IMG/VR virus record: IMGVR_UViG_2548876943_000023
DNA from: a virus
Taxonomy: Duplodnaviria > Heunggongvirae > Uroviricota > Caudoviricetes
DNA length: 13,384 nucleotides
Reading direction: 5' to 3' (one strand)
Positions 1,221 to 13,384 of this stretch are shown here, piece after piece; positions within the stretch are counted from its first letter, which is position 1; the number at the start of each line of letters is the position of its first letter. Below the pieces are notes generated by a model, which saw only the letters and a program-made list of their open reading frames with translations, did no database searches and was not told the origin of the DNA. Both the position numbers and the translations under genes were made by a program.

Positions 1221-1260
1221 ACACAAATAAAAAGCACCAGTATGGTGCTTTGTGCTTTTA
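1221..1260. terminator. Bidirectional rho-independent terminator, mainly serving the minus-strand gene 1275-1637
   Basis: Stem AAGCACC (1232-1238), loop agtat, stem GGTGCTT (1244-1250). On the minus strand it is followed by TTTATTTGTGT; on the plus strand by TGTGCTTTT. It lies 25 bp past the stop of the 1275-1637 ORF. Confidence 0.6.
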
Positions 1261-1274
1261 ACGAGTCCAAATAC

Positions 1275-1637
1275 CTAGTACTCAGGAAGATTTTCTAAAT
1301 TATCCTTAGATGTACCATTGGCTCTAGTTGTAATGTAATCAATGTTGTTAACACGGTCTTTAACCACTTTTTGACCCTTCTTCCACTTACCGTCATCACC
1401 TATGAAAATGGTGTAAAACGTATAACCACTATCGATCTTATTCACTACCCACTGCCGTGTTTCTGATACCCCTCCCCCAACAGTATCCCCCTTATCAACA
1501 TGCACATACACATGGGTAATGTGAGTGTGCTTGTCGTTATATCGGACTTTAGAAATAAGGTAATCAGCCCATTTATCAATCATATTCCACCATAAGTTTG
1601 AACAGGAAAAGTCCTGCAATACTCTTATAAACAACAA
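1275..1637 (-). CDS. Hypothetical AT-rich cargo protein, His-rich motif HTHITHVYVHVDKGD; unknown function
   Basis: ORF in the six-frame track. The listed start is TTG at 1637 (upstream GGTAGGAAG). An alternative ATG at 1583 (MIDKWADYL..., upstream GGTGG) would give 101 aa. Visibly AT-rich compared with the adjacent terL. Sits between the terL stop and a terminator. No family recognised. Confidence 0.5.
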   Translation of the reverse strand: MLFIRVLQDFSCSNLWWNMIDKWADYLISKVRYNDKHTHITHVYVHVDKGDTVGGGVSETRQWVVNKIDSGYTFYTIFIGDDGKWKKGQKVVKDRVNNIDYITTRANGTSKDNLENLPEY

Positions 1638-1732
1638 AGCAGCGGCTTCCTACCCCACGATGGTAATATAGTGATCTAGAGCAATTTATATTTCCGATAA
1701 CATCGACACAACTCCACATTTACACTCTATTC

Positions 1733-3394
1733 TCAAATTCCATTAAATAAAGCCAACCGTTCTTTGTGGCTGTCGCTCATATCGAATGCAAATTCCTCAT
1801 GCTCTGCCTGGAATGTGCCAAACGCCATCAGCGCCGCAACACTCGGGTCTATCTTGTTGGATGATTTTTTCTTGTTCGGCTTGATATTGGCGTTTGCGTC
1901 ACTCTGCATCACAACATTACTCATTGACCAGGCCAGCACCGGATCACCACTATGCACAATCACCTTCCGGTTAACAAAAACCTCGAACGATTTCGCCGCC
2001 GGACTGAAACGAAGGTATGTTTGCGGGAACGGCTCCACCTCAAATCCTGCCCCCTGTAGCTGCGTCCTCAGGTGTGTGGCGTTCCATGTATCGAAACCCA
2101 CCAGCCTGATATTGAAATTCTCTGCATCCGCCATGATGTCATCACGGATACGGTCATAATCAATGCAGTCACCCGGTGTTGTGCGTATCCAGCCCGCCTT
2201 TACCCACTGGCGATAGATGGCGCGGTTTTTATTGGCGGGGTTCTGTAGCTGAAATTCCGGTAGATAGTGACGTGAAACCAGCATAATCTTTTTACCGACC
2301 GGGAAGGCATAGCACACGCTGGAAATATCGCTGGTTGATGATAAGTCCAGCCCCGCGTAGCACTCCTGCCCGTATAAATCCACCTCCGCGAACGTTCCGG
2401 CGCACTCCGCCCATGCACCGTTACCCATCCACGGCGTAGCCCCCTGACACCAGATATTGAATCGCTTGGTGAGCATTTCCACCCACTGCGACGGAATACC
2501 CCGCGCTTTCTGGATGGTTGAGGCCAGTTTTTCACGATCGACGGAAACATCGATATTGGGATTCGCCTTTATCCACATCGCCGGATCGTCAACCTCGCTT
2601 TCATCATCCAGCTCGTAAATCAGCACGAACATGGATTCGTTCACCTCTTCACCATCCAGTATCTGGCAGCAATAGTCGTAGTGTTGTTTACAGGCTGAAA
2701 CAACGTTGCTCCCCGATGTGGTGATGGCAAATAATAACCCCTCCGGACGCGCCCCCATTCCCAGTTCAAGCGCGGAATAAACCCCGTTGTCAGGGTGCAG
2801 GTGATATTCATCCACAATGGCAAGACTCGGATTTGTACCTTCAATGGTTGCCGCTTTTGCTGCCAGTGGCTTTAACAGGCTGTTGGTTTTCGGGTGTATC
2901 ACCTTGTGTGCCTGAATATTTACCCGCTTTCGTAACGGTCGGGATAAAAGGCACATCTGACGCGCATCATCAAACACGATCCGCGCCTGATCACGACTCA
3001 CGGCGGCGGTGTAAATATCCTGCTGCCCGTTTTCCATAACCAGAAACCAGTTAGCCAGGATAGCGGCGACCGTGGATTTGGCATTTTTTCGCGGTACTTC
3101 AATGAATGCGCTGGTGTATTTGCGCCGTCCGGTGGCCTTAACCTTAAAGCCCAGGATGCAGGCAAAGGCGAACTGCTGCCACGGCTCCAGTTCAATGGGG
3201 CTACCGCGCATTGCGCCTTTTACGTGCGGGCACACCCGGGAAAAGGCAATAAACCGCTCCACGACCTCCGGATCGAACGTGTAAAGGGGGTTTTCAAGGT
3301 CAGAAAAATACCGTTTAACGGCCTGTTTCAGTCGTTTACAGGCCGTAATTTTGCCGTTTTTTACGCCTTCTGCGTACTCATGCCAGGCGGTCAA
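1733..3394 (-). CDS. terL: Phage terminase large subunit (ATPase/nuclease)
   Basis: 553-aa ORF whose length and overall sequence character are those of a phage large terminase, placed immediately after terS. Start is TTG at 3394 with an upstream AGAGGAAGAGGA Shine-Dalgarno; it overlaps the terS 3' end by 17 nt. Confidence 0.9.
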   Translation of the reverse strand: MTAWHEYAEGVKNGKITACKRLKQAVKRYFSDLENPLYTFDPEVVERFIAFSRVCPHVKGAMRGSPIELEPWQQFAFACILGFKVKATGRRKYTSAFIEVPRKNAKSTVAAILANWFLVMENGQQDIYTAAVSRDQARIVFDDARQMCLLSRPLRKRVNIQAHKVIHPKTNSLLKPLAAKAATIEGTNPSLAIVDEYHLHPDNGVYSALELGMGARPEGLLFAITTSGSNVVSACKQHYDYCCQILDGEEVNESMFVLIYELDDESEVDDPAMWIKANPNIDVSVDREKLASTIQKARGIPSQWVEMLTKRFNIWCQGATPWMGNGAWAECAGTFAEVDLYGQECYAGLDLSSTSDISSVCYAFPVGKKIMLVSRHYLPEFQLQNPANKNRAIYRQWVKAGWIRTTPGDCIDYDRIRDDIMADAENFNIRLVGFDTWNATHLRTQLQGAGFEVEPFPQTYLRFSPAAKSFEVFVNRKVIVHSGDPVLAWSMSNVVMQSDANANIKPNKKKSSNKIDPSVAALMAFGTFQAEHEEFAFDMSDSHKERLALFNGI

Positions 3395-3734
3395 GCTCGT
3401 CCTCTTCCTCTGTTTCCGGTGGATTTCTGCGGCGGCTTACCGGGTCAAAACCCAGCAAAGAAGCCATTTTGATCATTATTCTTTCTGCGTCAGCCTTTGC
3501 GCTCAGGGCGGGGTTTCTGCTCTCGCTGCCCTGACTGTTAACAATGCTGAACCCGCGCGTCGCAAGGTCTTCGACGGCTTTGCGGTATATGGAGTAGTTA
3601 ACGCAATACAGTTCCAGATTGCTCCAGTCGGCTGGGGTAAGGTCTTCCCGCCCGGAAAGCTGGCGCGATTTTTCCTTCCACTGCCTGACCGCGATTTCAT
3701 CCAGGTAAGCGGGGACTTTTGGTGGTCTTGCCAT
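3378..3734 (-). CDS. terS: Phage terminase small subunit, P27-family-like
   Basis: 118 aa from an internal ATG (MARPPKVPAYLDEIAVRQWKEK...), with an acidic C-terminus EEEDELDRLA. The longer N-terminal extension in the ORF track is rejected because it is not protein-like and overlaps upstream sequence. Shine-Dalgarno is weak. Confidence 0.8.
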   Translation of the reverse strand: MARPPKVPAYLDEIAVRQWKEKSRQLSGREDLTPADWSNLELYCVNYSIYRKAVEDLATRGFSIVNSQGSESRNPALSAKADAERIMIKMASLLGFDPVSRRRNPPETEEEDELDRLA

Positions 3735-3853
3735 GTTCTTTTTTCGCCCAATTATTTTCAAAAAAATTCCCGTGCACAAAAATTTGAGGAGGCGGTCGGT
3801 GTCCGGCAGGGACGGTTTCGTCCTGAAAACCACCCCCACCCCCTCTGACGGCC

Positions 3854-4030
3854 TCACCAGCGATTGCGAAAACATTCCATGACCTCGCGGTCACGGTCGG
3901 TTAATCGCTTCGCTGTGGTGCGTTTTGTGCGCCCTGTCCTGTTGGCTTTGTGCTCTGTCTCCTGTGTCTTCCATGTGTCACGCTGCCTTATCAGTCCACG
4001 TATCAGCCTGGTTTGCTCCTGTTCAGTCAT
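3854..4030 (-). CDS. Small basic hypothetical protein (58 aa), possibly coupled to HNH
   Basis: Internal ATG at 4028-4030 overlaps the HNH 3' end by 8 nt (ATGACTGA). Product MTEQEQTRLIRGLIRQRDTWK... is highly basic. No recognisable family, so it may be spurious. Confidence 0.3.
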   Translation of the reverse strand: MTEQEQTRLIRGLIRQRDTWKTQETEHKANRTGRTKRTTAKRLTDRDREVMECFRNRW

Positions 4031-4463
4031 CATCGCCATACATCCAGTCGTTACGGTGTGCCGCCCGTTCTTCCTGCTCGCGATACATGCCCGCTTTACG
4101 GTTTGCTTTCGTGGCTGGATCTTCCCGTGTCGTCTTACGGTTGTGGCACGTCTGGCACAATGCCTGGTGATTCCACTCAGGCCAGAAGAGAACATCACCG
4201 CCGCCATTGATGGGAATGATGTGATCCACCACAAGAGCTGGTGTATAAATACCCTTAGCCAGACAACGCACGCATAACGGGTTTTTGCTCAGGTACAGGG
4301 CGCGGTATTTGTCCCACTGTCGGGAATACCCACGTGCGCGGCGGTGTCCCCGTCTGGCATCCTCTGCACGCCATGCAGCCCGCCTGTGCTCTTCACACTT
4401 GCCGGACTTCACGCGCTTATTACAGCCCGGCTCAGTGCATCGCCTTAATGGTTGCCACGGCAT
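4023..4463 (-). CDS. HNH endonuclease (packaging-associated)
   Basis: Cys pairs and the motif CVRCLAKGIYTPALVVDHIIPINGGGDVLFWPEWNHQALCQTCHNRKT (CxxC...DH...N...CxxCH) are typical of HNH. It is adjacent to terS/terL, as in HK97-like cos phages. Its ATG overlaps the connector stop. Confidence 0.85.
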   Translation of the reverse strand: MPWQPLRRCTEPGCNKRVKSGKCEEHRRAAWRAEDARRGHRRARGYSRQWDKYRALYLSKNPLCVRCLAKGIYTPALVVDHIIPINGGGDVLFWPEWNHQALCQTCHNRKTTREDPATKANRKAGMYREQEERAAHRNDWMYGDDD

Positions 4464-4765
4464 CAGTACACCCCCACATCACGATAAACCGACCAGAGCG
4501 CAGAAATAGCCATAGGCAGTTCCGAGTGCTCAACTGGTGAAACCGCTTCCCGGTTCTCGTACAGAAAAGCGATGTACATCAGGCAACCAACACGTATTGC
4601 CGGGGTAAATTCCAGGCCGTCTTCAAAACGTTTCCCGATATGCTTCTGGCAGGCTTCCAGCGCCGCATCGGTATATATTTGCAGAAGTTCAACCTCACCA
4701 TAAAAATCATCATCAAGGCGAAGATGGGCCATTACTTCATTAAGCGTAATTCTGGATTCACTCAT
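4463..4765 (-). CDS. Head-tail connector protein (gp6-like)
   Basis: 100 aa from ATG at 4765 (MSESRITLNEVMAHLRLDDD...), the characteristic N-terminal pattern of gp6-like connectors. Shine-Dalgarno AAGGTG is upstream. Start overlaps the portal 3' end by 8 nt. Confidence 0.75.
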   Translation of the reverse strand: MSESRITLNEVMAHLRLDDDFYGEVELLQIYTDAALEACQKHIGKRFEDGLEFTPAIRVGCLMYIAFLYENREAVSPVEHSELPMAISALWSVYRDVGVY

Positions 4766-5972
4766 CTTTTTCACCTTTAATTTCCACAGTCTGCTTCCAT
4801 GCCTGGCTGAACTCATCACCACCTTCACGCGGCGGCATACCCTCACGCTCACGGGCTTCGTTCGGATTCATGATCCCGTTCTTAATCCCTTTCTCATACG
4901 TGGCATAACGTTCGGTGGGTGTGGCGCGTAATAAATCGGCTGAATCAAACTCAACCAGATAACGGGTACCAGGTACGGGAGAAGCCACCAGCAAAGCGGC
5001 CTTGATTTGCTGTTCGAAGTTCGCCAGCCATGGGCGCATTGTCATGGTCAGAAACGCGCGGCTTGCCTCGCTGAAATTGCTGTAGGTGCTGTTGCTGTAT
5101 TCCTGCAGAAAAATAGGCGATACGTTGAACATGCGGGCGATGTCTTCAATGGAGAAGCGACGGGAGGCCAGCCATTCCGCATCCTGGTTACTCATTCCCA
5201 GTTGCTTGTAATCCATGCCCCCTTCAAGGATTGGCGTTTTTCCGGCATTTTTCGCCCCCTTGTAGCGTTCCAGAGCATCTAATGCCTGTTTACCTTTCAC
5301 GCCGTCCAGCCATTCGCCTGACGTGATAATCCCTGCCGCCATCATGCCATCTTTCATAATGCTGGCTCCGTGGCGCTGTTGAGCAAGGCCAAGCCCAAGT
5401 GCCTCACGGCAAATCGTGACGGGGGAGCGCCCCAGAAAGCCATCATCCGAGGCATAGCGGAGATGCAGAACTTCTTCCTGTAAATACGTGCGCACCGTTC
5501 CTGTATAGGGTTCGGTGATGGTATATCGGTATTTGTGTGCGCCTGTGCGTTCCGGTACAACACAACCCGGTGCATAAGGATGAAGTGATTTGGGCTGCCC
5601 GTCCCGCCCCCACTCAATAACCGCATAGGCGTTACCGTTCAGCAGGCAGTGACGCATCATTGTGCGTTTAAACTGGTAAGGTGTCTGGCACGAATTAGGC
5701 TGCTCATTCAGCAGAATATCTACCGGGTGACTGTCCAGCCATTCCCGCGCCTCCCTGCCCTTGTCATTACGTACCAGATACAGATAACACGGCATCGTGG
5801 CCACCGCCTCAGCGATGACAGAAACCGCGTTCATCACTGCAGGCAATGATTCAGCCGTCCCGGCAGAAACATATTCTCCGGATCCGGTATTCGGTACGCC
5901 GGACAGCGCCAGAAAATCATCAATGGACAGGTTACGCTGCTCGCTTTTTTTACGACTAAAAGGCCACCACAT
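4758..5972 (-). CDS. Phage portal protein, HK97 family
   Basis: 404 aa from ATG at 5972 (MWWPFSRKK...). Size and position fit an HK97-type portal, with an acidic C-terminus. The start lies 1 nt from the protease stop. Confidence 0.9.
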   Translation of the reverse strand: MWWPFSRKKSEQRNLSIDDFLALSGVPNTGSGEYVSAGTAESLPAVMNAVSVIAEAVATMPCYLYLVRNDKGREAREWLDSHPVDILLNEQPNSCQTPYQFKRTMMRHCLLNGNAYAVIEWGRDGQPKSLHPYAPGCVVPERTGAHKYRYTITEPYTGTVRTYLQEEVLHLRYASDDGFLGRSPVTICREALGLGLAQQRHGASIMKDGMMAAGIITSGEWLDGVKGKQALDALERYKGAKNAGKTPILEGGMDYKQLGMSNQDAEWLASRRFSIEDIARMFNVSPIFLQEYSNSTYSNFSEASRAFLTMTMRPWLANFEQQIKAALLVASPVPGTRYLVEFDSADLLRATPTERYATYEKGIKNGIMNPNEAREREGMPPREGGDEFSQAWKQTVEIKGEKDE

Positions 5973-5973
5973 A

Positions 5974-6534
5974 TCACAACCCCGCCAGCTCAGACCAACG
6001 ATGACGATTATTTCCTGTCGGACGTAATTCAGGGTGCTGTGCAAACAACGAACGGCGGGCAATCTCCACGCCAGATTCTGGATAAGCAGGCATCGACGTT
6101 ATTGTGATTTCACGGAGTTCAGCGGCGGTTACGGTACGCAGATACGGTTTTTGCGCAATACTCCACTCCTCGCATAATGCGCGAAAACCAAAGCTCATTC
6201 CTGTAATGTCGCCACGCTCCACCAGCGTAAGCACATCTTTTCCAAGCTGGGTATCCGGCGGTGTCAGCTCAAAACGTAACCCGGTGTTATCCTCAGTCAG
6301 TACCAGAGTGCCGGATTTGGTGCGCCCCAGCAGTTGGGTATAGTCATGCTCATACAGGCAGCGCACATCATTACCCGCCGCCAGATAGTCAGCAAAAGCC
6401 CCCGGCGTGAACTGTTCGCGGAATTCGTCCCAGATAATTTCTGAAAGGCTGTTCCAGCGAACGGCATACCCCACCAGCTTTTTATTGCTGGCGGTCAGTT
6501 CAGATGTGCGGATTTCAAAATCGGTGTTTTTCAT
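5974..6534 (-). CDS. Prohead protease, HK97 family
   Basis: 186 aa with motifs LVGYAVRWNS...FTPGAF...YEHD...LGRT...TEDNTGLRFEL...GMSFGF consistent with HK97 prohead protease. GGAG Shine-Dalgarno 8 nt upstream. Confidence 0.85.
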   Translation of the reverse strand: MKNTDFEIRTSELTASNKKLVGYAVRWNSLSEIIWDEFREQFTPGAFADYLAAGNDVRCLYEHDYTQLLGRTKSGTLVLTEDNTGLRFELTPPDTQLGKDVLTLVERGDITGMSFGFRALCEEWSIAQKPYLRTVTAAELREITITSMPAYPESGVEIARRSLFAQHPELRPTGNNRHRWSELAGL

Positions 6535-6554
6535 CGGTGTACTCCATAAAGCTG

Positions 6555-6580
6555 AAAAAGGAGGCCGCAGCCTCCTCCTT
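6555..6580 (-). terminator. Intra-operon hairpin with T-tract between the capsid and protease genes (likely a partial terminator)
   Basis: On the minus strand: AGGAGGC-tgcg-GCCTCCT (7-bp GC-rich stem, 4-nt loop) followed by TTTT. It sits 9-34 nt downstream of the capsid stop. Confidence 0.45.
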
Positions 6581-6588
6581 ACTCATGA

Positions 6589-7758
6589 CTAGCCAGCTTT
6601 CATTTCCAGAATTTTGATGGCGTTTGAATCCACCACACCACCGCCCAGATATTTATCCGTGTGGACCTTGTAGAATCCGGGTTCAGTAATGTTGTCCGGT
6701 CGGGTGCGAATCCCTGTTACATGATCAACGATGAAATAACCACGACTGAAATCGCCAACCGCTAGCGGTGCTTTTCCTGCGCCGATGTCCGGCATGGACT
6801 CCAGGCAGTAAACAGGACGACCAAGCAACATATCCGGCGCACCTTCTTTAAGGCTGTCGCGCCAGATATAATCGCCGTTCTCATTTTTCAGCTTCTGTAG
6901 TGTCCCTGCCGTGCCCGAGTTCATCACCCAGACGGCATTTTTGCGGTATTTCGCTTTCAGCTTGTAGAGAATGTCGATCAGTTCGTCCGCTGTAATGGCG
7001 GTTCCACTTGCCGCTACCATTTTTTCAATGGTGCCAAAAGCGCGGGTTTTGTCACTGGTCGCCGCACGGGTGTAAGCCATGAAGCCTTTCGGCTTGCCGT
7101 TACCGTCGCCATTAACAAAATCATCCTCTTCGGTGCTGGCGAACGTGTCGGCAATTTCGGAGGATAACCAGCCCAGAATATCCACCTCTGAAAAATCAAG
7201 GATTTCCTGCGTGGTTTTCGGGTAGGCGTAGATCGGATTCAGCTTGATGGTTACGCGTTCAATTTTCGGGGTGTTGGTTTCACTGCGTGCGCTGCCTTCT
7301 GTGCCTCGTCCTACAGTTGCGCCGCCAGTGGAAACCAGTTTCTGAAACTCATTTGATTTTGCGGTCTTCACGGTCGCGATCACGCGCATAACACTGTCAT
7401 CCTGTAGCTGGCGCATGACTTCGCGATCGAGCTCAGGAATTACGGTATATCCGCCATCCCTGCCGCTGTCAGTGCTGGTGGACAGTGATCGCACATCTCC
7501 GGTTACGATGTAGTTACGCAATTCATCAGATGATAATTTCTGGATGCCCGTTCCTGGCTTGCTGCGTTCTTCATCAGCCACAGACTCGAGGCGGGAAATT
7601 TCTGTGTCGAGGGAGTCGGCTTTTGCACGCAGTTCATCAAACTGTTTGCCCTCGTCATCGTTCAGGCTGCGGTTTTCACTGTCGGCTTTTTCCAGCAGAG
7701 ATCGCATCTGGTTTTTCAGGGCGGTTTTTTGCTGGCGGAGTTCGATTAATTTCTTCAT
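6589..7758 (-). CDS. Major capsid protein, HK97 family, with N-terminal coiled-coil (delta/scaffold-like) region
   Basis: 389 aa. The N-terminal ~70 aa (MKKLIELRQQKTALKNQMRSLLEKADSENRSL...) look like a coiled coil, followed by a body typical of an HK97-fold capsid. Gene order context supports the call. Confidence 0.9.
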   Translation of the reverse strand: MKKLIELRQQKTALKNQMRSLLEKADSENRSLNDDEGKQFDELRAKADSLDTEISRLESVADEERSKPGTGIQKLSSDELRNYIVTGDVRSLSTSTDSGRDGGYTVIPELDREVMRQLQDDSVMRVIATVKTAKSNEFQKLVSTGGATVGRGTEGSARSETNTPKIERVTIKLNPIYAYPKTTQEILDFSEVDILGWLSSEIADTFASTEEDDFVNGDGNGKPKGFMAYTRAATSDKTRAFGTIEKMVAASGTAITADELIDILYKLKAKYRKNAVWVMNSGTAGTLQKLKNENGDYIWRDSLKEGAPDMLLGRPVYCLESMPDIGAGKAPLAVGDFSRGYFIVDHVTGIRTRPDNITEPGFYKVHTDKYLGGGVVDSNAIKILEMKAG

Positions 7759-7828
7759 GAAGGTTTTCTCGTATTGGTTAAGATTCAGGACGTGAAACCA
7801 ACACGGAGGGAGCGCCGCCCGACACTCT

Positions 7829-7878
7829 CGGCATCTCGCAGATCAACCCGGCATCGCGCAGGGGGTCAGGCGGCATTG
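7829..7878. promoter_or_regulatory. Phased direct repeats CGGCATCTCGCAG / CGGCATCGCGCAG / CGGCATTG upstream of the capsid operon
   Basis: Repeats start at 7829, 7849 and 7871, about two helical turns apart, and lie 70-120 bp upstream of the capsid ATG on the minus strand. Possibly activator sites; function inferred. Confidence 0.3.
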
Positions 7879-7950
7879 TGGCGGCTCACGTCTGAGTGCC
7901 ACGCTCCAACATATACATAAAAATCAGTATGTAAACACCTGTCAGTCAGA

Positions 7951-7980
7951 CCGAACAACCACGAAAGAACACGAACAAAT
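7951..7980. repeat. Three tandem decamers CCGAACAACC / ACGAAAGAAC / ACGAACAAAT directly upstream of the cassette promoter
   Basis: Read from the sequence. Same ACGAACAA motif family as 201-230. Confidence 0.5.
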
Positions 7981-7982
7981 AA

Positions 7983-8044
7983 TTTACAAAAGAAGTAAAC
8001 CATGGCCTATTATTGCTGTCTCTGACTACAACAAAGGACGCATC
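7983..8044 (+). promoter_or_regulatory. Sigma70-like promoter and RBS for the antisense cargo gene
   Basis: TTTACA (7983-7988), about 18-19 bp spacer, TATTAT (8008-8013). Shine-Dalgarno AAAGGA (8033-8038) is 6 nt before the ATG at 8045. Confidence 0.45.
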
Positions 8045-8551
8045 ATGAATTTAAGCGCAATGGTATACCCTGATACTTTCATAATTAATGGCGAATCATT
8101 CAGAGGTAAAAGAAACGCAAAAGAAAACAAGGTATTAATTCCATATACAAATGAACCGGAAGTAACTATTGGTCAACACATTATCCAGCGTGTCGGTAAA
8201 AACGAGATAAATCTAAAAATTATAGATATGAAGTTGCTTCCCAATGGAACCCTCAGACAGGGAACCAATCATCCAAATATGTTGACTCTCTATATTGAAA
8301 ATATCACGGGAAATGAACATATGACGCCAACTAAAAGTAATACATTTAACATTGGTTCAATTAGTGGTGATCAAGTGCAGATAGGTGAGCATAACCATAT
8401 GCTGGTAAACATCAGCATCACTGAACTGGTTGAAAAAGTCGCTAAATCGGGGGATGTACAAGCCAAATCAGTATTAAAGCAGTTACTGGAAAACAGTACC
8501 GTTGCCAGCATTGTTGGGGCTGGCGCAAGTGCCCTAATAGGCTTACTGTAA
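8045..8551 (+). CDS. Hypothetical cargo protein (168 aa) with hydrophobic C-terminal segment; candidate defence or helper-interference effector
   Basis: Clean ORF on the opposite strand to all backbone genes. Visibly AT-rich, with N/I/K-rich codon usage. Has its own promoter, Shine-Dalgarno and terminator. The C-terminal 17 aa (TVASIVGAGASALIGLL) form a small-residue-rich hydrophobic helix. No family recognised. Confidence 0.7.
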   Translation: MNLSAMVYPDTFIINGESFRGKRNAKENKVLIPYTNEPEVTIGQHIIQRVGKNEINLKIIDMKLLPNGTLRQGTNHPNMLTLYIENITGNEHMTPTKSNTFNIGSISGDQVQIGEHNHMLVNISITELVEKVAKSGDVQAKSVLKQLLENSTVASIVGAGASALIGLL

Positions 8552-8557
8552 AAAAAT

Positions 8558-8588
8558 GGCCTGGATTTTACCAGGCCTTTATTATTTT
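8558..8588. terminator. Bidirectional rho-independent terminator between convergent genes
   Basis: GGCCTGG-atttta-CCAGGCC, followed by TTTATTATTTT on the plus strand and, in reverse complement, by ATTTTTTT on the minus strand. Confidence 0.7.
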
Positions 8589-8835
8589 ACCGTTTCACGG
8601 GATCGCGCATTCTGCGCCTTATTTTCCACAGATATTCGATCATCGCTTCCACCTGTTCACGGTTGGTTGCGAAAATTTCCCCGGTCAGTGAGCTACGCAG
8701 AAAATCATGATGATCCACAACAAACAACGCATCGGAAGAAAGCAGACGGCGATATTTTTTTGCTGTCATGGTTTCCAGATCATCAAAATCATGAAACTTT
8801 TTATGTTGCTGGACTTCTTCAAATGTCACTGGCAT
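8587..8835 (-). CDS. Hypothetical small protein (82 aa)
   Basis: ATG at 8835 (MPVTFEEVQQHKKFHDFDDLE...) with a GAGGGGA Shine-Dalgarno, 16 bp after the SSB-like stop. The N-terminal extension shown in the ORF track would overlap the SSB-like gene and is rejected. Confidence 0.55.
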   Translation of the reverse strand: MPVTFEEVQQHKKFHDFDDLETMTAKKYRRLLSSDALFVVDHHDFLRSSLTGEIFATNREQVEAMIEYLWKIRRRMRDPVKR

Positions 8836-8851
8836 GTCCCCTCTGTTGTCG

Positions 8852-9277
8852 CTAAAACGGTATGTTGTCCCCGTACGGATCATCGTGCTGACCCGTCTGC
8901 TGTTTTGCCCTGTTCAGTGCGTCAGTCGCCTGGCTCTGCTGGCCTTTTTTGCCGCCCGGTCGCACCGTTCGCGCACTGATTACGCTGTCTGCGATAACCT
9001 GCCAGCCTTGCCGCGTTTCGCCGTTCTGGCCTGTCCACTGGCTTACCTGCATGTTACCCACCACGCTCACCAGTTCGCCTTTGTGGTGTTTTGCCAGTGC
9101 ATCGGCCTGTCTGCCAAACGCCAGAACAGAAAGCCACATCGTCACCGCACCATCATCAGCCTGACTGCATGGCTGGGGGACCGCCATACTTACCATCGCC
9201 ATTTGTGTACCCTTGCTGGTGGTCTTTAACTGCGGGTCATTTGTCAGCCGCCCGTAAGCGGCTATCTGTGCTGTCAT
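8852..9277 (-). CDS. SSB-like OB-fold single-stranded DNA-binding protein (short form)
   Basis: The N-terminal pattern (IAAYGRLTNDPQLK...) and the core (W-LSVLAFGRQAD-ALAKHHKGELVSVVGNMQVSQWTGQNGETRQGWQVIADSV) resemble bacterial SSB. The C-terminal tip ...DDPYGDNIPF matches the SSB acidic tail ending in IPF. ATGA overlap with the upstream ORF and GGAGGGA Shine-Dalgarno. Confidence 0.65.
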   Translation of the reverse strand: MTAQIAAYGRLTNDPQLKTTSKGTQMAMVSMAVPQPCSQADDGAVTMWLSVLAFGRQADALAKHHKGELVSVVGNMQVSQWTGQNGETRQGWQVIADSVISARTVRPGGKKGQQSQATDALNRAKQQTGQHDDPYGDNIPF

Positions 9278-9519
9278 GATTCCATCCCTCCGGTGTTAAC
9301 GTTGATGGTTGTCACCTGTTCCGCTTCGGCAATCTCCCGCTCTATCAGCGTGGCAAAATTTGCCGCCGCCGTGGTCATGAATGCGCTTATCAGTTCGGGA
9401 TGTGCTTTCGCGTATCCTTCCCCGGCGTTGCGGTCGATGATTTTTATCGACACCCTTAACCAGTGTTCCGTCAAATCAAGGGCGTGCGATTGTGATTTTT
9501 TTGTGTGCTTCGCTGTCAC
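9274..9519 (-). CDS. Hypothetical small protein (81 aa), GTG start
   Basis: ORF translationally coupled to the SSB-like gene (ATGA overlap). Only a GTG start is available at 9519, with a weak Shine-Dalgarno. No family recognised. Confidence 0.4.
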   Translation of the reverse strand: MTAKHTKKSQSHALDLTEHWLRVSIKIIDRNAGEGYAKAHPELISAFMTTAAANFATLIEREIAEAEQVTTINVNTGGMES

Positions 9520-9564
9520 AGGCTTTATCTCACAGCAGTAAATTAAAATTTTTGCGTTTTAACC

Positions 9565-9786
9565 CTTCACCTGTTCACCTTTTGATATTTTCTCTTTTAA
9601 TTCATAATGTTAAGGGGTGAACAGTTTCAAAAAAACTATTCACCAACTGTTCACCACTGTTCACCCTTGAAGCTCAATAAACAATCAAAAAGGTGAACAG
9701 TGAATAGTTTGGTGAACAGTTCATAAATAACTGTTCACCCTATAATATACTGATATAAAAGATATTTATGACAGGGTGAACAGTTA
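9565..9786. repeat. Iteron array (about 10 copies of GGTGAACAGT(T) and variants, both orientations) flanking an AT-rich core; putative origin of replication
   Basis: Copies at about 9571-9579, 9616-9626, 9636-9644, 9645-9655, 9656-9666, 9692-9700, 9700-9707, 9711-9721, 9729-9740 and 9775-9786. AT-rich stretch 9741-9770 includes TATAAT. The array lies immediately 3' of the primase/helicase stop, as with PICI/SaPI origins. Confidence 0.6.
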
Positions 9787-9796
9787 TTCCATAAGT

Positions 9797-11614
9797 TTAA
9801 TTTTTGCTATCGCCATTAGTGACCGATACACATGATGGCATCCAGTCTTCTGATTCCTCCGTCAGTGTCACGTTTGAACGCAAACCGTGCTTCGTTTTCC
9901 GTTTCATATACTCCCTGCCATATTCCGCCATTGCCCCCGGCATATCTTTACCGAAGCGCGTCAGTGTTACAGGTTTACCAAACCCATGTGCCCTCATATA
10001 AGCCAGATAGGCATGATAGAGATACCTGCGTGGGCTGAATGGCACAATTTCAGCATTACCCACTAACAGGCCATCACACATTACCGACGCCATGAGATAG
10101 CCGCAGAAGTCCACCAGCGAATCCCCCTCTCGCTTTATCGCCAGTGCTTCTTCAGATTTCTGCTGCTCATATAACAGGCGTCTGGCTTCGTCCTGGTCAG
10201 CAAACCGTGTAAGCAGATGGCGAATCACTACCGCCAGCTCACCTTCTATTTTTTCCGCCAGCATTGGATCACGTTCGTTCTCCGGTACAACTTCCGAAAA
10301 ATTGAATATCACCCGACGACGTGAGATCCCCCCGCTGCGGTCACTGAATGACATAGCGTTATTGTTAACCGCCAGCACTACTGCCGGAATACGTGTTGAG
10401 TAGGGGGCTTTGTGTTTCGGGTCAATTGCCACCTTGTCACCGCCTGTAATAGCCTTAATCCCTGCCCCATCACCAGCGTAGCGGGTCATATCCGGCATGA
10501 TAATCAGCGAAAAGCCAACCACTAACGCGCGTTCCCTTGCATCTTCCAGCGCCTTCATGCTTGCCGATACTGTGTTGGCCTTACCCGCCAGCATGGTGCA
10601 AATCTCCGCCATCACGCTTTTACCACTTCCCCCTGGACCTGTTACCTCAATGAATAACTGCCAGTCGTACCGGTTCGCCAGCACCATGAATAATGCAGCC
10701 AGTACGCGATCCGCCTTGCGGTCATTCTCAGCCACCGAACGGCGTAACCACTTCCAGAAATTCGGCGCATGTGTTGCCAGCGTTTCCCCCTCTGCTGGTG
10801 GGCTGAAAGGTAATTCACTGGCAATTAACAACCAGTCGTTTTTGTTATGCTCCCGAAAATTACCTGTTCTGGTATCAAATACCCCGTTACTGAATCCAAT
10901 CAGGTTACGGGCTGTATTCCCCATTACAGGCAAACTTAACTTCATGGTATCGACCGCCGATTTAATGGCGTTCTGCGAATAGCTGATCTCCGCATCAATG
11001 AAAATCTGTGCCATAGCTCGCTGTAATTCTTTATCCTGTACTGGCTCCCATACAACGCCGTTGTAATGGTGAACAGTGTCAGAGTCAGCATGAATCGCCA
11101 GTTCACCGCCATAATGTGCCAGGAGAACTTCGCCGCGTTGACTTGCTCCCATCTGGTTAAGCGCCAGTGATGAAGCGTTATCGTCTTTTACCCGCTCTTT
11201 TTTCTTTACAGGCAGTTCAACTACCTTTTTCTTTTCCGCCAGCTCTGCCCGTTCACGTTCCAGATATTCGTGCCAGTTCTCCCGTTTCTGGCTGTGCATT
11301 CCTTCAGGATAATAATCAGCATCCCTGACACCTGCCGCTGCCAGTTTCTGCCCGATGGTATTAACAAGCACCGGACGCAATAACCCCGCCTGATAGAGAC
11401 GCACGCGATAGCGTCCGTCCGGTACGATTTGCAGGTTGTCCAGTTCGGCAAGTTGTTGCTCTCCAAGCCAGACAGGTGGCACGTTATCGCCTGCCAGTCG
11501 CCCGTCCTGTTCCTGCCACTGCTTCGCATGTGCCCACGCATCACTACCCGCAAAAATGATGACTTCCGTCATTTTGTCACGCGGCTGGTGTTTTAAATTT
11601 GGCGCTTTTTTCAT
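9797..11614 (-). CDS. Primase/helicase, P4-family (D5-like) replication protein
   Basis: About 605 aa from ATG at 11614 (MKKAPNLKHQ...). Walker A motif VTGPGGSGKS and the downstream layout are typical of phage/plasmid P4-family primases. GGAGAG Shine-Dalgarno. ATGA overlap with the upstream ORF. Confidence 0.85.
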   Translation of the reverse strand: MKKAPNLKHQPRDKMTEVIIFAGSDAWAHAKQWQEQDGRLAGDNVPPVWLGEQQLAELDNLQIVPDGRYRVRLYQAGLLRPVLVNTIGQKLAAAGVRDADYYPEGMHSQKRENWHEYLERERAELAEKKKVVELPVKKKERVKDDNASSLALNQMGASQRGEVLLAHYGGELAIHADSDTVHHYNGVVWEPVQDKELQRAMAQIFIDAEISYSQNAIKSAVDTMKLSLPVMGNTARNLIGFSNGVFDTRTGNFREHNKNDWLLIASELPFSPPAEGETLATHAPNFWKWLRRSVAENDRKADRVLAALFMVLANRYDWQLFIEVTGPGGSGKSVMAEICTMLAGKANTVSASMKALEDARERALVVGFSLIIMPDMTRYAGDGAGIKAITGGDKVAIDPKHKAPYSTRIPAVVLAVNNNAMSFSDRSGGISRRRVIFNFSEVVPENERDPMLAEKIEGELAVVIRHLLTRFADQDEARRLLYEQQKSEEALAIKREGDSLVDFCGYLMASVMCDGLLVGNAEIVPFSPRRYLYHAYLAYMRAHGFGKPVTLTRFGKDMPGAMAEYGREYMKRKTKHGLRSNVTLTEESEDWMPSCVSVTNGDSKN

Positions 11615-11910
11615 TTCTGCTCTCTCCACGCGGCAATCATGTTTTTCAGTTCCTGTAGTTTTTTATCAACATCCATACATGACACATGGTTATTTCTGGA
11701 AAGCGGGATTTCCCGCCTGAATCTGCTAATAAAGATCTCCACGTTCAGCGAACTATGAAATGAATAGCCATCACGAATAAAATACACACGGTCAAACATC
11801 AGTTCTTTTACCGTTACTCTGTTACCGTTCTTATCCAGATAAATAGCGCCGGGGATAATTTTGGGGTGTGCATAACCGCTGGCAGTCAAGCCAGATAAAT
11901 ATGTTCTCAT
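11611..11910 (-). CDS. Hypothetical protein (99 aa), translationally coupled to the primase
   Basis: ATG at 11910; its stop overlaps the primase start. Visibly lower GC than the primase. No family recognised. Confidence 0.55.
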   Translation of the reverse strand: MRTYLSGLTASGYAHPKIIPGAIYLDKNGNRVTVKELMFDRVYFIRDGYSFHSSLNVEIFISRFRREIPLSRNNHVSCMDVDKKLQELKNMIAAWREQK

Positions 11911-11916
11911 GATTAT

Positions 11917-12237
11917 TTATCCCCGATTTGAATCAGTATTCGCTTTCTTTATGGCATTTAATGCATCTGCGGCATTTTCAATGGTGCACCGTAACGAAAT
12001 ATCAAACTGCCCAAGCATTGCCAGTAACAAACCGATATTACCCATATCAATGCGCATAGCCTTTTCGTCATAGTCCTCATTTTCTGACGCATGCCACATC
12101 AGGCTACCAATTGACGCAATACCCATTGATATATTGTCAGTAGCCCCATCCGCAGCGGAATAAACCTTTTTAGCAATATCATGCTCACAGTTAAAATGCG
12201 GATTAATCAGGTACTGGTAATTTGACATATCAGGCAT
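11917..12237 (-). CDS. Hypothetical protein (106 aa)
   Basis: ATG at 12237 with an AGGGGGTG Shine-Dalgarno; 6 bp before the next ORF. No family recognised. Confidence 0.55.
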   Translation of the reverse strand: MPDMSNYQYLINPHFNCEHDIAKKVYSAADGATDNISMGIASIGSLMWHASENEDYDEKAMRIDMGNIGLLLAMLGQFDISLRCTIENAADALNAIKKANTDSNRG

Positions 12238-12433
12238 GGCACACCCCCTGACGAATACGGGCGGCGAATACCATCACGCAGCCAGCCGGGGATTGCTGGC
12301 GTGCTTCCTGTTCGCTGGTGGCCACGATGTGAATCACGCGCGGTTGTGCCGTGCTCAGGGCGATAAAACGCCAGATGAATTTATTCAGGTTGTGCGAGTC
12401 CCGCCCTTGCGGGTGTGTGGTATGATTTAACAT
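12230..12433 (-). CDS. Possible small protein (67 aa), first gene of the minus-strand early operon
   Basis: ATG at 12433 with a GAGGT Shine-Dalgarno; overlaps the next gene's start by 8 nt. It is the C-terminal part of a long non-protein-like ORF in the track, so it is uncertain. Confidence 0.3.
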   Translation of the reverse strand: MLNHTTHPQGRDSHNLNKFIWRFIALSTAQPRVIHIVATSEQEARQQSPAGCVMVFAARIRQGVCHA

Positions 12434-12529
12434 AGCTACCTCGATACTTCTGCTATCGTTGGTGGTTAGAAGCCCGGTTAGTGTTAGCGCACTGCCGGGT
12501 TTCGTCGTTTCTGCACCTTGCATCAACAA

Positions 12530-12584
12530 GGTGTTAAACACCAATTTAAGCCTAGGTGTTAAACACGTCAAGTGTTGAACACTT
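12530..12584. promoter_or_regulatory. Three palindromic operator-like sites in a divergent promoter region
   Basis: GGTGTTAAACACC (12530-12542), GTGTTAAACAC (12556-12566) and AAGTGTTGAACACTT (12570-12584). A promoter-like TTGAAC-N17-CATACT overlaps site 3. The region lies between the minus-strand operon start (12433) and the plus-strand small ORF (12633). Confidence 0.55.
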
Positions 12585-12632
12585 ATTTTTTTTCCTGCAT
12601 ACTGCATTTGTTTTTTGTAAGGAGTACACAAC

Positions 12633-12812
12633 ATGGCGACAAAAGCAGTAAACGCAAAATCACAAACAGTTGCGGCAAGGGTTCCGCATGAAGTTATGAA
12701 CAATGTTGAGGCGGTAAAAATGCCTGGTGAAAGTACAGGGCAGTTTGTAACAGCAGCATTAAAGCGAGAAGTTGAATACCGCCAGCGTCGCAAGGCCAAA
12801 GAGCAGGAGTAA
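12633..12812 (+). CDS. Small ribbon-helix-helix-like DNA-binding protein (59 aa), candidate repressor
   Basis: Not in the ORF track (under 60 aa). Strong Shine-Dalgarno AAGGAG 8 nt before ATG. Translation MATKAVNAKSQTVAARVPHEVMNNVEAVKMPGESTGQFVTAALKREVEYRQRRKAKEQE fits a strand-helix-G-helix RHH pattern. Confidence 0.55.
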   Translation: MATKAVNAKSQTVAARVPHEVMNNVEAVKMPGESTGQFVTAALKREVEYRQRRKAKEQE

Positions 12813-12869
12813 CCATCACCAGCGCCGTGGTGCGGTGAACTGTGGCGCACAGGGTTACAGGTATCTACG

Positions 12870-13049
12870 ATGACTGACAAATCATTAAAGAAATTATCCT
12901 CATCCAAGAAAAAACAACGCAAAAATGCGGTAAACGAACATGAACCGGAGAGATTCGCACCATGTGCGTTTATCCTTGAGAAGTACCTTAAAGAGTATTC
13001 TAGGAAAATACGCTCATTGCAGGCATGGCAGCGAATCGAGCCAGACTGA
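12870..13049 (+). CDS. Possible small Lys-rich protein (59 aa)
   Basis: ATG at 12870 with a weak AGGT Shine-Dalgarno. MTDKSLKKLSSSKKKQRKNAVNEHEPERFAPCAFILEKYLKEYSRKIRSLQAWQRIEPD. Uncertain. Confidence 0.3.
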   Translation: MTDKSLKKLSSSKKKQRKNAVNEHEPERFAPCAFILEKYLKEYSRKIRSLQAWQRIEPD

Positions 13050-13113
13050 TAGCATTGCCCACTAGCCGACAACCTGGTATTCTGGATATGCTCAAGTTTA
13101 GTGTTATGCCACT

Positions 13114-13141
13114 GGCGACCGCCCCCGGTCGCCTTTGTTTT
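13114..13141 (+). terminator. Rho-independent terminator ending the plus-strand small-ORF transcript
   Basis: GGCGACC-gccccc-GGTCGCC followed by TTTGTTTT. Confidence 0.7.
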
Positions 13142-13159
13142 ATGTGTCATAGCTCCCCC

Positions 13160-13384
13160 CTAGGCTGCCTTACCTGAATTAACGCGGTCACGGCTTTGCA
13201 CCCAGTCCATAACTTCGGAAAGCAACCAGCCTACAGAACGCCCCCCAAGATTACGGCGAGACGGAAAGCCCCCTTTCTTCTCCAGTTCGTAGCGTGTAGT
13301 ACGGCTGACGCCTGTTAACTTACGACATTCATCCTCACGAATTACGCGATCTGTTAGTGATTGAAATTGTGTATTTTGATTCAT
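13160..13384 (-). CDS. alpA: AlpA-family (excisionase-like, MerR-type HTH) transcriptional regulator
   Basis: 74 aa. The pattern LTGVSRTTRYELEKKGGFPSRRNLGGRSVGWLLSEVMDWVQSR is typical of AlpA/prophage regulatory proteins. The ATG is the last three bases of the window, so its promoter and any integrase lie outside. Confidence 0.85.
   Translation of the reverse strand: MNQNTQFQSLTDRVIREDECRKLTGVSRTTRYELEKKGGFPSRRNLGGRSVGWLLSEVMDWVQSRDRVNSGKAA

What the first reader, a model, noticed from the sequence alone, without database searches (positions are those of the whole stretch)
1275..13384. Tail-less HK97-type head and packaging module joined to a PICI-like control and replication module (capsid-forming satellite architecture)
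The window encodes capsid, protease, portal, connector, HNH, TerS and TerL, but no tail, baseplate, fibre or lysis genes. Upstream in the same orientation are AlpA, a primase/helicase and an iteron origin, which are hallmarks of phage-inducible chromosomal islands. The head gene order (capsid, protease, portal, connector, HNH, terS, terL) is inverted relative to canonical HK97-like phages. About 12 kb is too small for an autonomous tailed phage.
Basis: partly seen in the sequence, partly recalled or inferred. Interest (0 to 1): 0.6.

Follow-up and report, generated by a model that had tools for sequence, protein, structure and literature searches.

The report
Capsid-forming phage satellite (cf-PICI)
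This stretch of an Escherichia coli chromosome is a capsid-forming phage satellite (cf-PICI), a known kind of ~15 kb mobile island that builds its own small virus heads and packs its own DNA but must borrow tails from a helper phage; it is a clear but ordinary example.

Summary
On the minus strand the window carries AlpA, Icd-like, DUF4222, a D5-type primase/helicase, an iteron origin, SSB, then capsid, S78 protease, portal, one gp6-like connector, HNH, a small ORF, TerS and TerL. It has no tail or lysis genes. The whole element is syntenic with EcCIEDL933, the experimentally characterised prototype cf-PICI (protein identities 58-93% in the packaging module). The gene order is exactly the one published for proteobacterial cf-PICIs. 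The window's left island end is an att core (81-95) next to thiM. In near-identical E. coli copies (99.5% over 11.6 kb), AlpA is followed by DUF6387, a tyrosine integrase, a second copy of the att core and then rcnR. That gives about 15 kb with chromosomal genes on both sides.

The kind is already known (Alqurainy et al. 2022/23; He et al. 2025; SatelliteFinder).

Two details were not found in the papers read. This lineage lacks the head-completion ("adaptor", PF05521) gene, which was absent in 17 of 74 related loci across several portal lineages. Its att core also lies inside the thiM TPP riboswitch aptamer, which the insertion splits.

Interest is low (0.2).

The parts
1..95 (-). Chromosomal flank: the thiM 5' leader, holding only the 3' half of the thiM TPP riboswitch aptamer.
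   Evidence: 98.9% identical to K-12 thiM upstream DNA. Rfam TPP scores 34.7 bits, below the gathering score of 54.3. The empty K-12 site scores 71.2 bits.
81..95 (.). att core AATACGGGTATTTCT, the left end of the island.
   Evidence: Three-way alignment of the K-12 empty site, the window junction and the integrase-side junction of L001. The same 15-mer lies at L001 23106-23120.
153..228 (.). Candidate integrase arm-type sites, including the tandem AACTGACCACAC x2 at 161-185.
   Evidence: The same 76-bp block is repeated next to the integrase in L001 (22944-23021, 86%) and in L005 (95%). Tandem repeat found. The function is inferred.
229..1274 (.). Mosaic non-coding or accessory end region with three terminator-like hairpins on the minus strand (1251-1231, 944-919, 370-339).
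   Evidence: Segment 300-790 is shared with a classical PICI at the same site in NZ_CP027550.1. Segment 783-1760 is shared with cf-PICIs at the clpS and proX sites.
1275..1583 (-). DUF3892 accessory gene (102 aa) in the variable slot after the packaging operon.
   Evidence: PF13031, E 1.7e-9; phrog_32719. No PADLOC or NCBIfam hit. The identical protein is found in cf-PICIs at three att sites.
1733..3394 (-). Large terminase TerL.
   Evidence: PF03354 and PF20441. 93% identical to EcCIEDL933 TerL.
3378..3734 (-). Small terminase TerS (118 aa, P27 family).
   Evidence: PF05119, E 4e-23. 87% identical to EcCIEDL933 TerS. The start codon follows the RefSeq annotation of relatives.
3745..3843 (-). 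Conserved non-coding block; putative cos / terminase recognition site.
   Evidence: Conserved from Escherichia to Proteus, Xenorhabdus and Gilliamella, while the flanking small ORF is barely alignable. The motif CTCAAATTTTTnnGCACGG occurred once in 24 of the 26 IMG/VR loci scanned for it; the two without it are short fragments of 4.8 and 7.2 kb. The ends of the linear record LR881103.1 fall inside this block. The function is inferred.
3854..4039 (-). Small ORF (61 aa), homologue of EcCIEDL933 gene 1792.
   Evidence: 77% identical; phrog_3173. The 1792 mutant of EcCIEDL933 transfers very poorly.
4023..4463 (-). HNH endonuclease, partner of the terminase in HK97-type cos cleavage.
   Evidence: PF01844. 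84% identical to the EcCIEDL933 protein.
4463..4765 (-). The single head-tail connector (gp6-like, 'Ad1'). No head-completion gene precedes it.
   Evidence: PF05135; phrog_40; TIGR01560. The portal stop overlaps its start. A profile of the head-completion protein finds nothing in six frames.
4758..5972 (-). Portal protein.
   Evidence: PF04860, E 6e-93. 81% identical to EcCIEDL933. Matches solved HK97-family and RcGTA portals in the PDB.
5974..6534 (-). Prohead serine protease (S78).
   Evidence: PF04586, E 6e-46.
6589..7758 (-). HK97-fold major capsid protein with an N-terminal delta domain.
   Evidence: PF05065. PDB 9gyi, E 1.7e-155; its N-terminal ~73 residues, as copied from the alignment, match the EDL933 capsid gene translation. 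64% identity.
8045..8551 (+). Accessory ORF (168 aa), opposite strand, low G+C, hydrophobic C-terminus, in the variable slot before the packaging operon.
   Evidence: phrog_5789, function unknown. No Pfam, PADLOC or NCBIfam hit. G+C 0.43.
8587..8835 (-). Conserved hypothetical protein (82 aa).
   Evidence: phrog_1957. 45% identical to its EcCIEDL933 counterpart.
8852..9277 (-). Single-stranded DNA-binding protein.
   Evidence: PF00436. 65% identical to the EcCIEDL933 protein.
9274..9519 (-). Conserved hypothetical protein (81 aa).
   Evidence: phrog_1231. 78% identical to the EcCIEDL933 protein.
9562..9794 (.). Replication origin: nine copies of GGTGAACAGT in both orientations, flanking A+T-rich stretches.
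   Evidence: [quoted passage not shown]
9797..11614 (-). Pri-Rep: D5-type primase-helicase replication initiator.
   Evidence: PF08706, PF19263, PF03288; TIGR01613. The first 114 aa are 74% identical to the EcCIEDL933 Rep; the rest is a different allele.
11611..11910 (-). DUF4222 protein.
   Evidence: PF13973. Found at the same position in EcCIEDL933.
11917..12237 (-). Hypothetical protein (106 aa).
   Evidence: phrog_15327.
12230..12433 (-). Icd-like protein.
   Evidence: NF033153. 59% identical to the EcCIEDL933 protein.
12633..12812 (+). YlcI/YnfO family ORF in the variable region downstream of alpA.
   Evidence: NF041551. This variable region is described by He et al..
13160..13384 (-). 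AlpA, the PICI master activator. Its start codon is the last triplet of the window.
   Evidence: PF05930, E 5e-16. 100% identical to the AlpA of L001, and carries the same accession as in L005 and L174.

Best explanation
The window holds most of an integrated capsid-forming phage-inducible chromosomal island (cf-PICI) of Escherichia coli, read from its terminase end (left) to alpA (right).

Proposed life cycle. All steps are inferred by homology to EcCIEDL933 and KpCIDSM30104, where they were shown experimentally; none was tested on this element.
1. The island sits in the thiM leader. It was inserted by a tyrosine integrase encoded just beyond the window.
2. A helper phage switches on alpA, which drives excision and the one-directional operon.
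3. The D5-type Pri-Rep protein fires the iteron origin at 9562-9794, with help from the island's SSB.
4. Capsid, S78 protease and portal assemble small (probably T=4, about 47 nm) procapsids.
5. TerS, TerL and HNH recognise and cut the island's own cos site, probably the conserved block at 3745-3843. They package one genome of about 15-15.7 kb per head.
6. The gp6-like connector finishes the portal vertex, and a helper phage tail is attached.
7. The particle injects its DNA into a new cell, and the island integrates again.
For: - Gene content and order match the published cf-PICI layout.
- The element is collinear and homologous with EcCIEDL933 from alpA to terL.
- The capsid matches the solved EcCIEDL933 capsid 9gyi at E 1.7e-155.
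- In EcCIEDL933 the genes of the putative packaging module were each mutated; all abolished transfer except gene 1792, which severely reduced it. The particles are small island-made heads on helper tails.
- The iteron origin is statistically solid and correctly placed.
- Near-identical copies have an integrase, a 15-bp att repeat and chromosomal genes on both sides. They measure 15,025 bp core to core in L001.
- All ORFs are intact and 98-100% identical to copies in other strains.
- The same packaging module sits at the thiM, clpS and proX sites, which argues for recent mobility.
- No record among 50,697 phage records covers more than 40% of the window. Capsid identity above 60% occurs only in 15-16.5 kb satellite-sized records, two fragments and one 106 kb record. 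True phages reach at most 37%.
- Relatives occur across Enterobacterales and Orbales, as published.
Against: - Nothing was tested experimentally for this element.
- The integrase end of the source genome is outside the window.
- The lineage lacks the head-completion ('adaptor', PF05521) gene. This gene appears to have been among the packaging-module genes whose mutation abolished EcCIEDL933 transfer (the text does not list which genes were mutated). He et al. show that adaptor and connector together determine tail specificity. Step 6 may therefore differ from the prototype.
- The cos assignment rests on conservation and on the ends of one deposited linear record that lacks about 65 bp there.
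- T=4 geometry is assumed from 64% capsid identity.
Confidence: 0.93

Rival explanations
1. It is a cf-PICI in ancestry but no longer transfers on its own. Loss of the head-completion gene would leave heads that cannot be closed or joined to tails, so the island is a decaying or purely vertically inherited relic.
For: No PF05521 homologue exists in any frame of the window or of the whole L001 island, while the EDL933 control scores E 1e-40. Mutating the EcCIEDL933 packaging-module genes abolished or, for gene 1792, severely reduced transfer. Most relatives (57 of 74) keep the gene.
Against: Every other gene is intact and 98-100% identical between strains. Packaging modules 96-100% identical in all genes except the capsid (68-69% in four of the six loci) and the connector (88-89%) lie at three different att sites. 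The gene is missing in at least 7 separate portal lineages in several genera, while the rest of the module stays conserved; this looks like tolerated, repeated loss. SatelliteFinder reports 459 of 969 cfPICI with 10 of 11 core components.
Confidence: 0.08
2. It is the remnant of an HK97-like prophage that lost its tail and lysis genes by deletion and lies next to an unrelated PICI-type module.
For: The head and packaging proteins belong to HK97-type families. The window alone does not show the integrase end.
Against: The boundaries are precise, with a 15-bp att repeat, and chromosomal genes flank both sides in relatives. The ~15 kb architecture is conserved in about 80 loci from many genera. 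The gene order differs from HK97 and equals the cf-PICI order. The closest true phage capsids are at most 37% identical. All genes are co-directional and tightly packed, with overlapping stops and starts.
Confidence: 0.02
3. It is a classical PICI or a P4-like satellite that remodels helper-made capsids rather than making its own.
For: The int/alpA/Icd/DUF4222/primase half is shared with a classical, capsid-less PICI at the same thiM site in NZ_CP027550.1. AlpA and P4-type primase domains also occur in P4-like elements.
Against: A full capsid, protease, portal, connector, HNH, TerS and TerL set is present. [quoted passage not shown] No sid/psu/delta-type or Rpp-type genes were detected.
Confidence: 0.02

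Closest known systems
EcCIEDL933 (E. coli O157:H7 EDL933), the prototype cf-PICI (Alqurainy et al., bioRxiv 10.1101/2022.09.08.507074; capsid structure in He et al., 10.1101/2025.02.11.637232)
   Same: Same overall layout: alpA, Icd-like, DUF4222, Pri-Rep, ori, small ORF, SSB, variable slot, capsid, protease, portal, connector, HNH, gene 1792, terS, terL, accessory gene. Protein identities: TerL 93%, TerS 87%, HNH 84%, portal 81%, gene 1792 77%, capsid 64%, protease 63%, connector 58%, AlpA 69%. Similar size (15.4-15.5 kb against about 15-15.7 kb).
   Different: The att site differs (roxA/phoQ region against the thiM riboswitch). The Rep allele differs (DUF927 against D5_N/Pox_D5) after a shared N-terminus. 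The accessory genes differ (PerC against orf168 and DUF3892). Here there is no head-completion/'adaptor' gene (EDL933 gene 1789, PF05521).
KpCIDSM30104 / EcCIGN02175 group of cf-PICIs (He et al. 2025). L016 is K. pneumoniae ATCC 13883; that this strain equals DSM 30104 is my own knowledge.
   Same: Head proteins are closer than to EDL933: portal 88%, protease 84%, capsid 76%, TerS 85%, TerL 82%. The four variable regions described by He et al. are the ones seen here: after alpA, before the packaging operon, after it, and at adaptor/connector.
   Different: Those islands carry both an adaptor and a connector; this one carries only the connector (63% identical). The window's connector is only 88-90% identical to connectors of several sister E. 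coli islands whose portal and HNH are 99-100% identical.
Classical Gram-negative PICIs (EcCICFT073 type; Fillol-Salom et al. 2018, PMC6092414)
   Same: Unidirectional transcription, alpA control, Pri-Rep followed by an iteron ori, and shared att sites. A classical PICI with the same int/DUF6387/AlpA/Icd/DUF4222/primase module occupies the same thiM site in NZ_CP027550.1.
   Different: Classical PICIs have no capsid, portal, protease, connector or terL. They are packaged in helper-made capsids by redirecting the helper terminase.
Phage HK97 and HK97-like cos phages (helpers such as HK106)
   Same: HK97-fold capsid with delta domain, S78 protease, portal, gp6-like connector, and HNH-dependent TerS/TerL cos packaging.
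   Different: No tail, lysis or lysogeny-switch genes. The head gene order is rearranged. Capsid identity to real phages is at most 37%. The prototype capsid is T=4 rather than T=7.

Membership tests
cf-PICI (SatelliteFinder 11-component model, PMC10085698; He et al. 2025 criteria) | Own major capsid protein, prohead protease and portal | tested here: met
   PF05065 2e-71, PF04586 6e-46, PF04860 6e-93. Identities to EcCIEDL933: 64%, 63%, 81%.
cf-PICI | Own HNH, TerS and TerL | tested here: met
   PF01844, PF05119, and PF03354 with PF20441. Identities to EcCIEDL933: 84%, 87%, 93%.
cf-PICI | Head-tail connector (gp6-like) | tested here: met
   PF05135, phrog_40, TIGR01560.
cf-PICI | Head-tail 'adaptor' (head-completion protein, PF05521; EDL933 gene 1789) | tested here: not met
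   The portal stop overlaps the connector start. A profile of 60 cf-PICI homologues finds nothing in six frames of the window or of the whole L001 island (best E 5.6, against 1e-40 for the control). The family model tolerates this: Type B has 10 of 11 components, and 459 of 969 elements are Type B. [quoted passage not shown]
cf-PICI | PICI-type regulator (AlpA) and primase-replicase | tested here: met
   PF05930 5e-16; D5_N/DUF5906/Pox_D5.
cf-PICI | Integrase and att boundaries | tested here: inconclusive
   The integrase lies outside the window. The left att core is present at 81-95. Copies 99.5% identical carry a tyrosine integrase and the second core.
cf-PICI | No tail module and no holin or lysis genes | tested here: met
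   None found among all ORFs of the window. None is annotated in the complete islands L001 and L005 or in their flanks.
cf-PICI | Size about 10-18 kb | tested here: met
   15,025 bp core to core in L001. The window version has about 650 bp more at the left end.
cf-PICI | Proteobacterial order: capsid-protease-portal-connector(s)-hnh-terS-terL | tested here: met
   Searches compared with the text quoted.
cf-PICI | Helper-phage induction, island-made small capsids, dependence on helper tails | not testable with these tools
   Shown only for EcCIEDL933 and KpCIDSM30104.
PICI (Gram-negative; Fillol-Salom 2018) | Iteron origin immediately 3' of rep, with iterons flanking an A+T-rich region | tested here: met
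   Nine iterons in 9570-9784; 12 in the window against 0.72 expected.
P4-like satellite | sid/psu/delta/epsilon capsid-size and transactivation genes, helper cos site, no capsid genes | tested here: not met
   No such families were hit, and a complete head and terminase set is present.
Autonomous HK97-like temperate phage | Tail, lysis and immunity modules in a ~40 kb genome | tested here: not met
   The modules are absent, and the element is about 15 kb with chromosomal genes on both sides in relatives.

The most novel reading that the evidence does not exclude
The most novel reading not excluded is this. This E. coli lineage, and at least six other lineages in Xenorhabdus, Pantoea, Symbiopectobacterium, Yersinia, Leclercia, Erwinia and Gilliamella, have repeatedly discarded the head-completion ('adaptor') gene and remain mobile. 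Either they take the helper's head-completion protein as well as its tail, or they dock tails directly on the single gp6-like connector. That would amend the rule that cf-PICIs 'only steal tails'. It would also change the expectation that they release stable, DNA-filled tail-less heads able to pair with tails from other species.
Probability: 0.3. Interest if true: 0.45.

Novelty: already known. Interest (0 to 1): 0.2.

Why it matters
cf-PICIs are an important and recently recognised route of gene transfer in Enterobacteria. They build their own heads, and their DNA-filled heads can pair with tails from phages of other species. Recognising this window as one adds no new principle.

Two side observations could be useful to specialists:
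- A recurrent adaptor-less sub-type bears on how heads are closed and matched to tails.
- The integration site splits the thiM TPP riboswitch, which may alter thiamine-salvage gene control in about 1.4% of complete E. coli genomes.

Tried and rejected
- Rfam at gathering thresholds found nothing in the window. At relaxed thresholds it found only the truncated TPP aptamer and a sub-threshold SymR-like hit.
- PADLOC and NCBIfam gave no names for the accessory ORFs orf168, DUF3892, hyp106, hyp82 and hyp81, so no defence function can be claimed.
- The Tai paper (PMC11364771) does not mention DUF3892 or cf-PICIs.
- I tried to map the packaged ends from IMG/VR contigs. Nearly all are prophage-trimmed predictions that begin or end at gene boundaries, so they say nothing about cos. 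Only one short contig ends in the conserved block. The linear record LR881103.1 ends in the block but lacks about 65 bp there, so this is only weak support.
- The source contig was not recovered. The exact DUF3892 protein occurs in 1125 index blocks, and the six places shown are mosaics that differ from the window.
- No complete E. coli genome covers more than 92% of the window.
- Supplementary tables listing published cf-PICIs and their attB sites are not held. I therefore could not check whether this exact island or the thiM site is already listed.
- Literature searches for thiM together with PICI, and for the core sequence, found nothing relevant.
- I rejected the 165-aa TerS ORF and the 306-aa ORF at 12230-13150 as over-extended reading frames.
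- tRNA scan: none found.

Full report
**What is in the window**

Nearly all real genes lie on the minus strand. Read in the direction of transcription, from 13384 down to 1275, they are:
- AlpA (13160-13384)
- an Icd-like protein (12230-12433)
- a 106-aa hypothetical protein
- DUF4222
- a 605-aa D5_N/DUF5906/Pox_D5 primase-helicase (9797-11614)
- a non-coding stretch (9520-9796)
- an 81-aa ORF
- SSB (8852-9277)
- an 82-aa ORF
- HK97-type capsid (6589-7758)
- S78 prohead protease (5974-6534)
- portal (4758-5972)
- a gp6-like head-tail connector (4463-4765)
- HNH (4023-4463)
- a 61-aa ORF (3854-4039)
- TerS (3378-3734)
- TerL (1733-3394)
- a DUF3892 protein (1275-1583)

The profile matches are strong. 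Two small genes face the other way: YlcI/YnfO (12633-12812) and a low-G+C 168-aa ORF (8045-8551). No ORF matches any tail, baseplate, fibre, holin or endolysin family. There are no tRNA genes.

**The origin**

The motif GGTGAACAGT (at most one mismatch) occurs 12 times in the window against 0.72 expected, and none of 200 shuffles reached 12. Nine copies, in both orientations, lie in 9570-9784, directly after the primase stop codon, and they bracket A+T-rich stretches.

**Boundaries and surroundings**

The window is E. coli DNA. Bases 1-95 are 98.9% identical to the K-12 thiM leader. The best complete genome, NZ_CM163381.1 (L001), is 99.5% identical over window 1758-13384, and all compared proteins are 98-100% identical.

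In L001 and in NZ_CP147535.1 (L005), AlpA is followed by a DUF6387 protein and a tyrosine integrase that has an arm-binding domain. After that comes rcnR, and thiM lies on the other side.

A three-way alignment of the empty K-12 site and both junctions gives the att core AATACGGGTATTTCT, at window 81-95 and at L001 23106-23120. The island in L001 is 15,025 bp from core to core. The window's version has about 650 bp more at its left end.

A 76-bp block containing AACTGACCACAC twice (153-228) is repeated next to the integrase. These are likely integrase arm sites, which is an inference.

Neither holds in near-identical copies. The source genome itself was not seen beyond 13384.

**Comparison with what is known**

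Alqurainy et al. described EcCIEDL933, a 15.4 kb E. coli island. It has PICI-type int, alpA and rep genes plus capsid, protease, portal, head-tail connectors, HNH, TerS and TerL, and it has no tail genes. They showed the following:
- Helper phages HK106 and HK446 induce it through alpA.
- It makes its own small capsids.
- It packages only itself.
- It needs only helper tails.

They state that proteobacterial cf-PICIs have the order capsid-protease-portal-head connectors followed by hnh-terS-terL, with 50-90% identity to EcCIEDL933 in the packaging genes.

I fetched EcCIEDL933 from the EDL933 chromosome. The window is collinear with it. Identities are TerL 93%, TerS 87%, HNH 84%, portal 81%, the 61-aa ORF 77% (this is gene 1792, whose mutant transfers poorly), capsid 64%, protease 63%, connector 58%, AlpA 69%, SSB 65% and Icd 59%.

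The capsid hits PDB 9gyi at E 1.7e-155. Its N-terminal ~73 residues, as copied from the alignment, match the translated EDL933 capsid gene. He et al. describe that capsid as a T=4, 47.5 nm shell with a cleaved N-terminal domain.

The packaging genes are closer still to the KpCIDSM30104 group: portal 88%, capsid 76% in L016.

Among 50,697 phage records, none covers more than 40% of the window. Capsid identity above 60% occurs only in 15-16.5 kb records of satellite size, two fragments and one 106 kb record. Genuine phages reach at most 37%. This is as published.

Relatives were found in about 80 loci from Enterobacterales and Orbales and in 401 IMG/VR stretches.

A classical, capsid-less PICI with the same int/DUF6387/AlpA/Icd/DUF4222/primase half occupies the same thiM site in NZ_CP027550.1. 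This illustrates the published modular relation between PICIs and cf-PICIs.

**Mechanism**

The mechanism is inferred by homology and was not tested here.
1. Helper-triggered alpA expression leads to excision.
2. Pri-Rep and SSB replicate the island from the iteron origin.
3. Capsid, protease and portal assemble small procapsids.
4. TerS, TerL and HNH cut at the island's own cos site and package one unit-length genome per head.
5. The connector completes the portal vertex, and a helper tail is attached.

For cos I propose the non-coding block at 3745-3843, between the 61-aa ORF and the TerS start. It is conserved from Escherichia to Gilliamella, while the neighbouring ORF is barely alignable. 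Its core motif occurred once in 24 of the 26 IMG/VR loci scanned for it; the two without it are short fragments. The ends of the linear 'induced prophage' record LR881103.1, a related 16.5 kb island, fall inside it, although about 65 bp are missing there. This support is suggestive only.

**How this element differs from the characterised ones**

EcCIEDL933 has two genes between portal and HNH. Gene 1789 is PF05521/phrog_25, a head-completion protein that the Penadés group calls the 'adaptor'. Gene 1790 is PF05135/phrog_40, the gp6-like protein they call the 'connector'.

In the window the portal stop overlaps the connector start. A profile built from 60 cf-PICI head-completion proteins finds nothing in any frame of the window or of the complete L001 island, whereas the control scores E 1e-40.

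Of 74 related loci, 57 have the ~340-bp gene and 17 have none. The 17 are scattered over at least seven portal lineages, so the loss is recurrent.

Published definitions allow this. Alqurainy et al. write 'all, or most' components. SatelliteFinder counts 459 of 969 cfPICI with 10 of 11 core components. I did not find this particular absence discussed in the papers I could read.

The absence matters for two reasons. The genes of the EcCIEDL933 packaging module were each mutated, and all mutations abolished or severely reduced transfer. Adaptor and connector together determine tail specificity.

The connector is also a local hot spot. It is 88-90% identical to the connectors of several sister islands whose portal and HNH are 99-100% identical.

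**Verdict**

This copy is an uncharacterised E. coli member of the 10-of-11-component type. Interest is low. The only mildly novel threads are the adaptor-less sub-type and the riboswitch-splitting integration site, which is listed under things noticed in passing.

Noticed in passing
window 35-122 and 81-95; L001 23057-23156; L006 337-433: The att core lies inside the thiM TPP riboswitch aptamer. The empty K-12 site gives a full TPP hit (71.2 bits, gathering score 54.3). In the occupied site only the 3' half stays next to thiM (34.7 bits). The 5' half and the region upstream of it are left about 15 kb away, pointing into the integrase gene. The island does not rebuild the aptamer. The occupied junction is present in 76 of 5,426 complete E. 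coli genomes. No paper linking PICIs and thiM was found.
   Followed up: partly
window 4758-4765; loci L005-L092: There is no head-completion ('adaptor', PF05521) gene between portal and connector. The gene is absent in 17 of 74 related cf-PICI loci, scattered over at least 7 portal lineages, including Xenorhabdus, Pantoea, Symbiopectobacterium, Yersinia, Leclercia, Erwinia and Gilliamella.
   Followed up: yes
window 3745-3843: This non-coding block (GGGGTGGGGG ... CTCAAATTTTTnnGCACGG ... TTTTTTTGAAAATAA) is strongly conserved upstream of terS across genera and is the likely cos site. The ends of the linear record LR881103.1 and of one IMG/VR contig (L149) fall inside it.
   Followed up: partly
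window 8045-8551 (+): A 168-aa ORF lies on the opposite strand in a region of about 43% G+C. It has a hydrophobic C-terminal tail and sits in the variable slot before the capsid gene, where He et al. expect immune systems. It matches phrog_5789 (function unknown) and has no Pfam, PADLOC or NCBIfam match.
   Followed up: partly
window 1275-1583 and 783-1274: The DUF3892 gene and about 500 bp of conserved non-coding DNA downstream of it (with two hairpins) travel as a cassette. The cassette is found in cf-PICIs integrated at thiM, clpS and proX. Its function is unknown.
   Followed up: partly
window 12434-12506 (+): A sub-threshold SymR-like antisense RNA hit (33.6 bits, gathering score 61, E 0.003) lies directly upstream of, and antisense to, the 5' end of the Icd-like gene. 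It may be chance.
   Followed up: no
window 300-790; L174 (NZ_CP027550.1 1655000-1676000): The left-end segment 300-790 is found complete in only 2 of 5,426 genomes. In one of them, NZ_CP027550.1 (the other was not examined), the thiM site holds a classical capsid-less PICI with the same int/AlpA/primase half. This shows recombination between PICIs and cf-PICIs that share an att site.
   Followed up: partly
window 31-300 (+); L001 8031-8300: RefSeq annotates a 'hypothetical protein' (WP_096925474.1) across the riboswitch remnant, the att core and the arm repeats. It is very probably a spurious gene call.
   Followed up: no
L093 (LR881103.1) 2036-4333: A related 16.5 kb cf-PICI, deposited as 'Escherichia phage vB_KppS-Ant', has a 765-aa ORF after terL that is annotated 'tail length tape measure protein'. 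It sits in the accessory slot, so the annotation is probably wrong or the gene is an accessory or defence gene.
   Followed up: no
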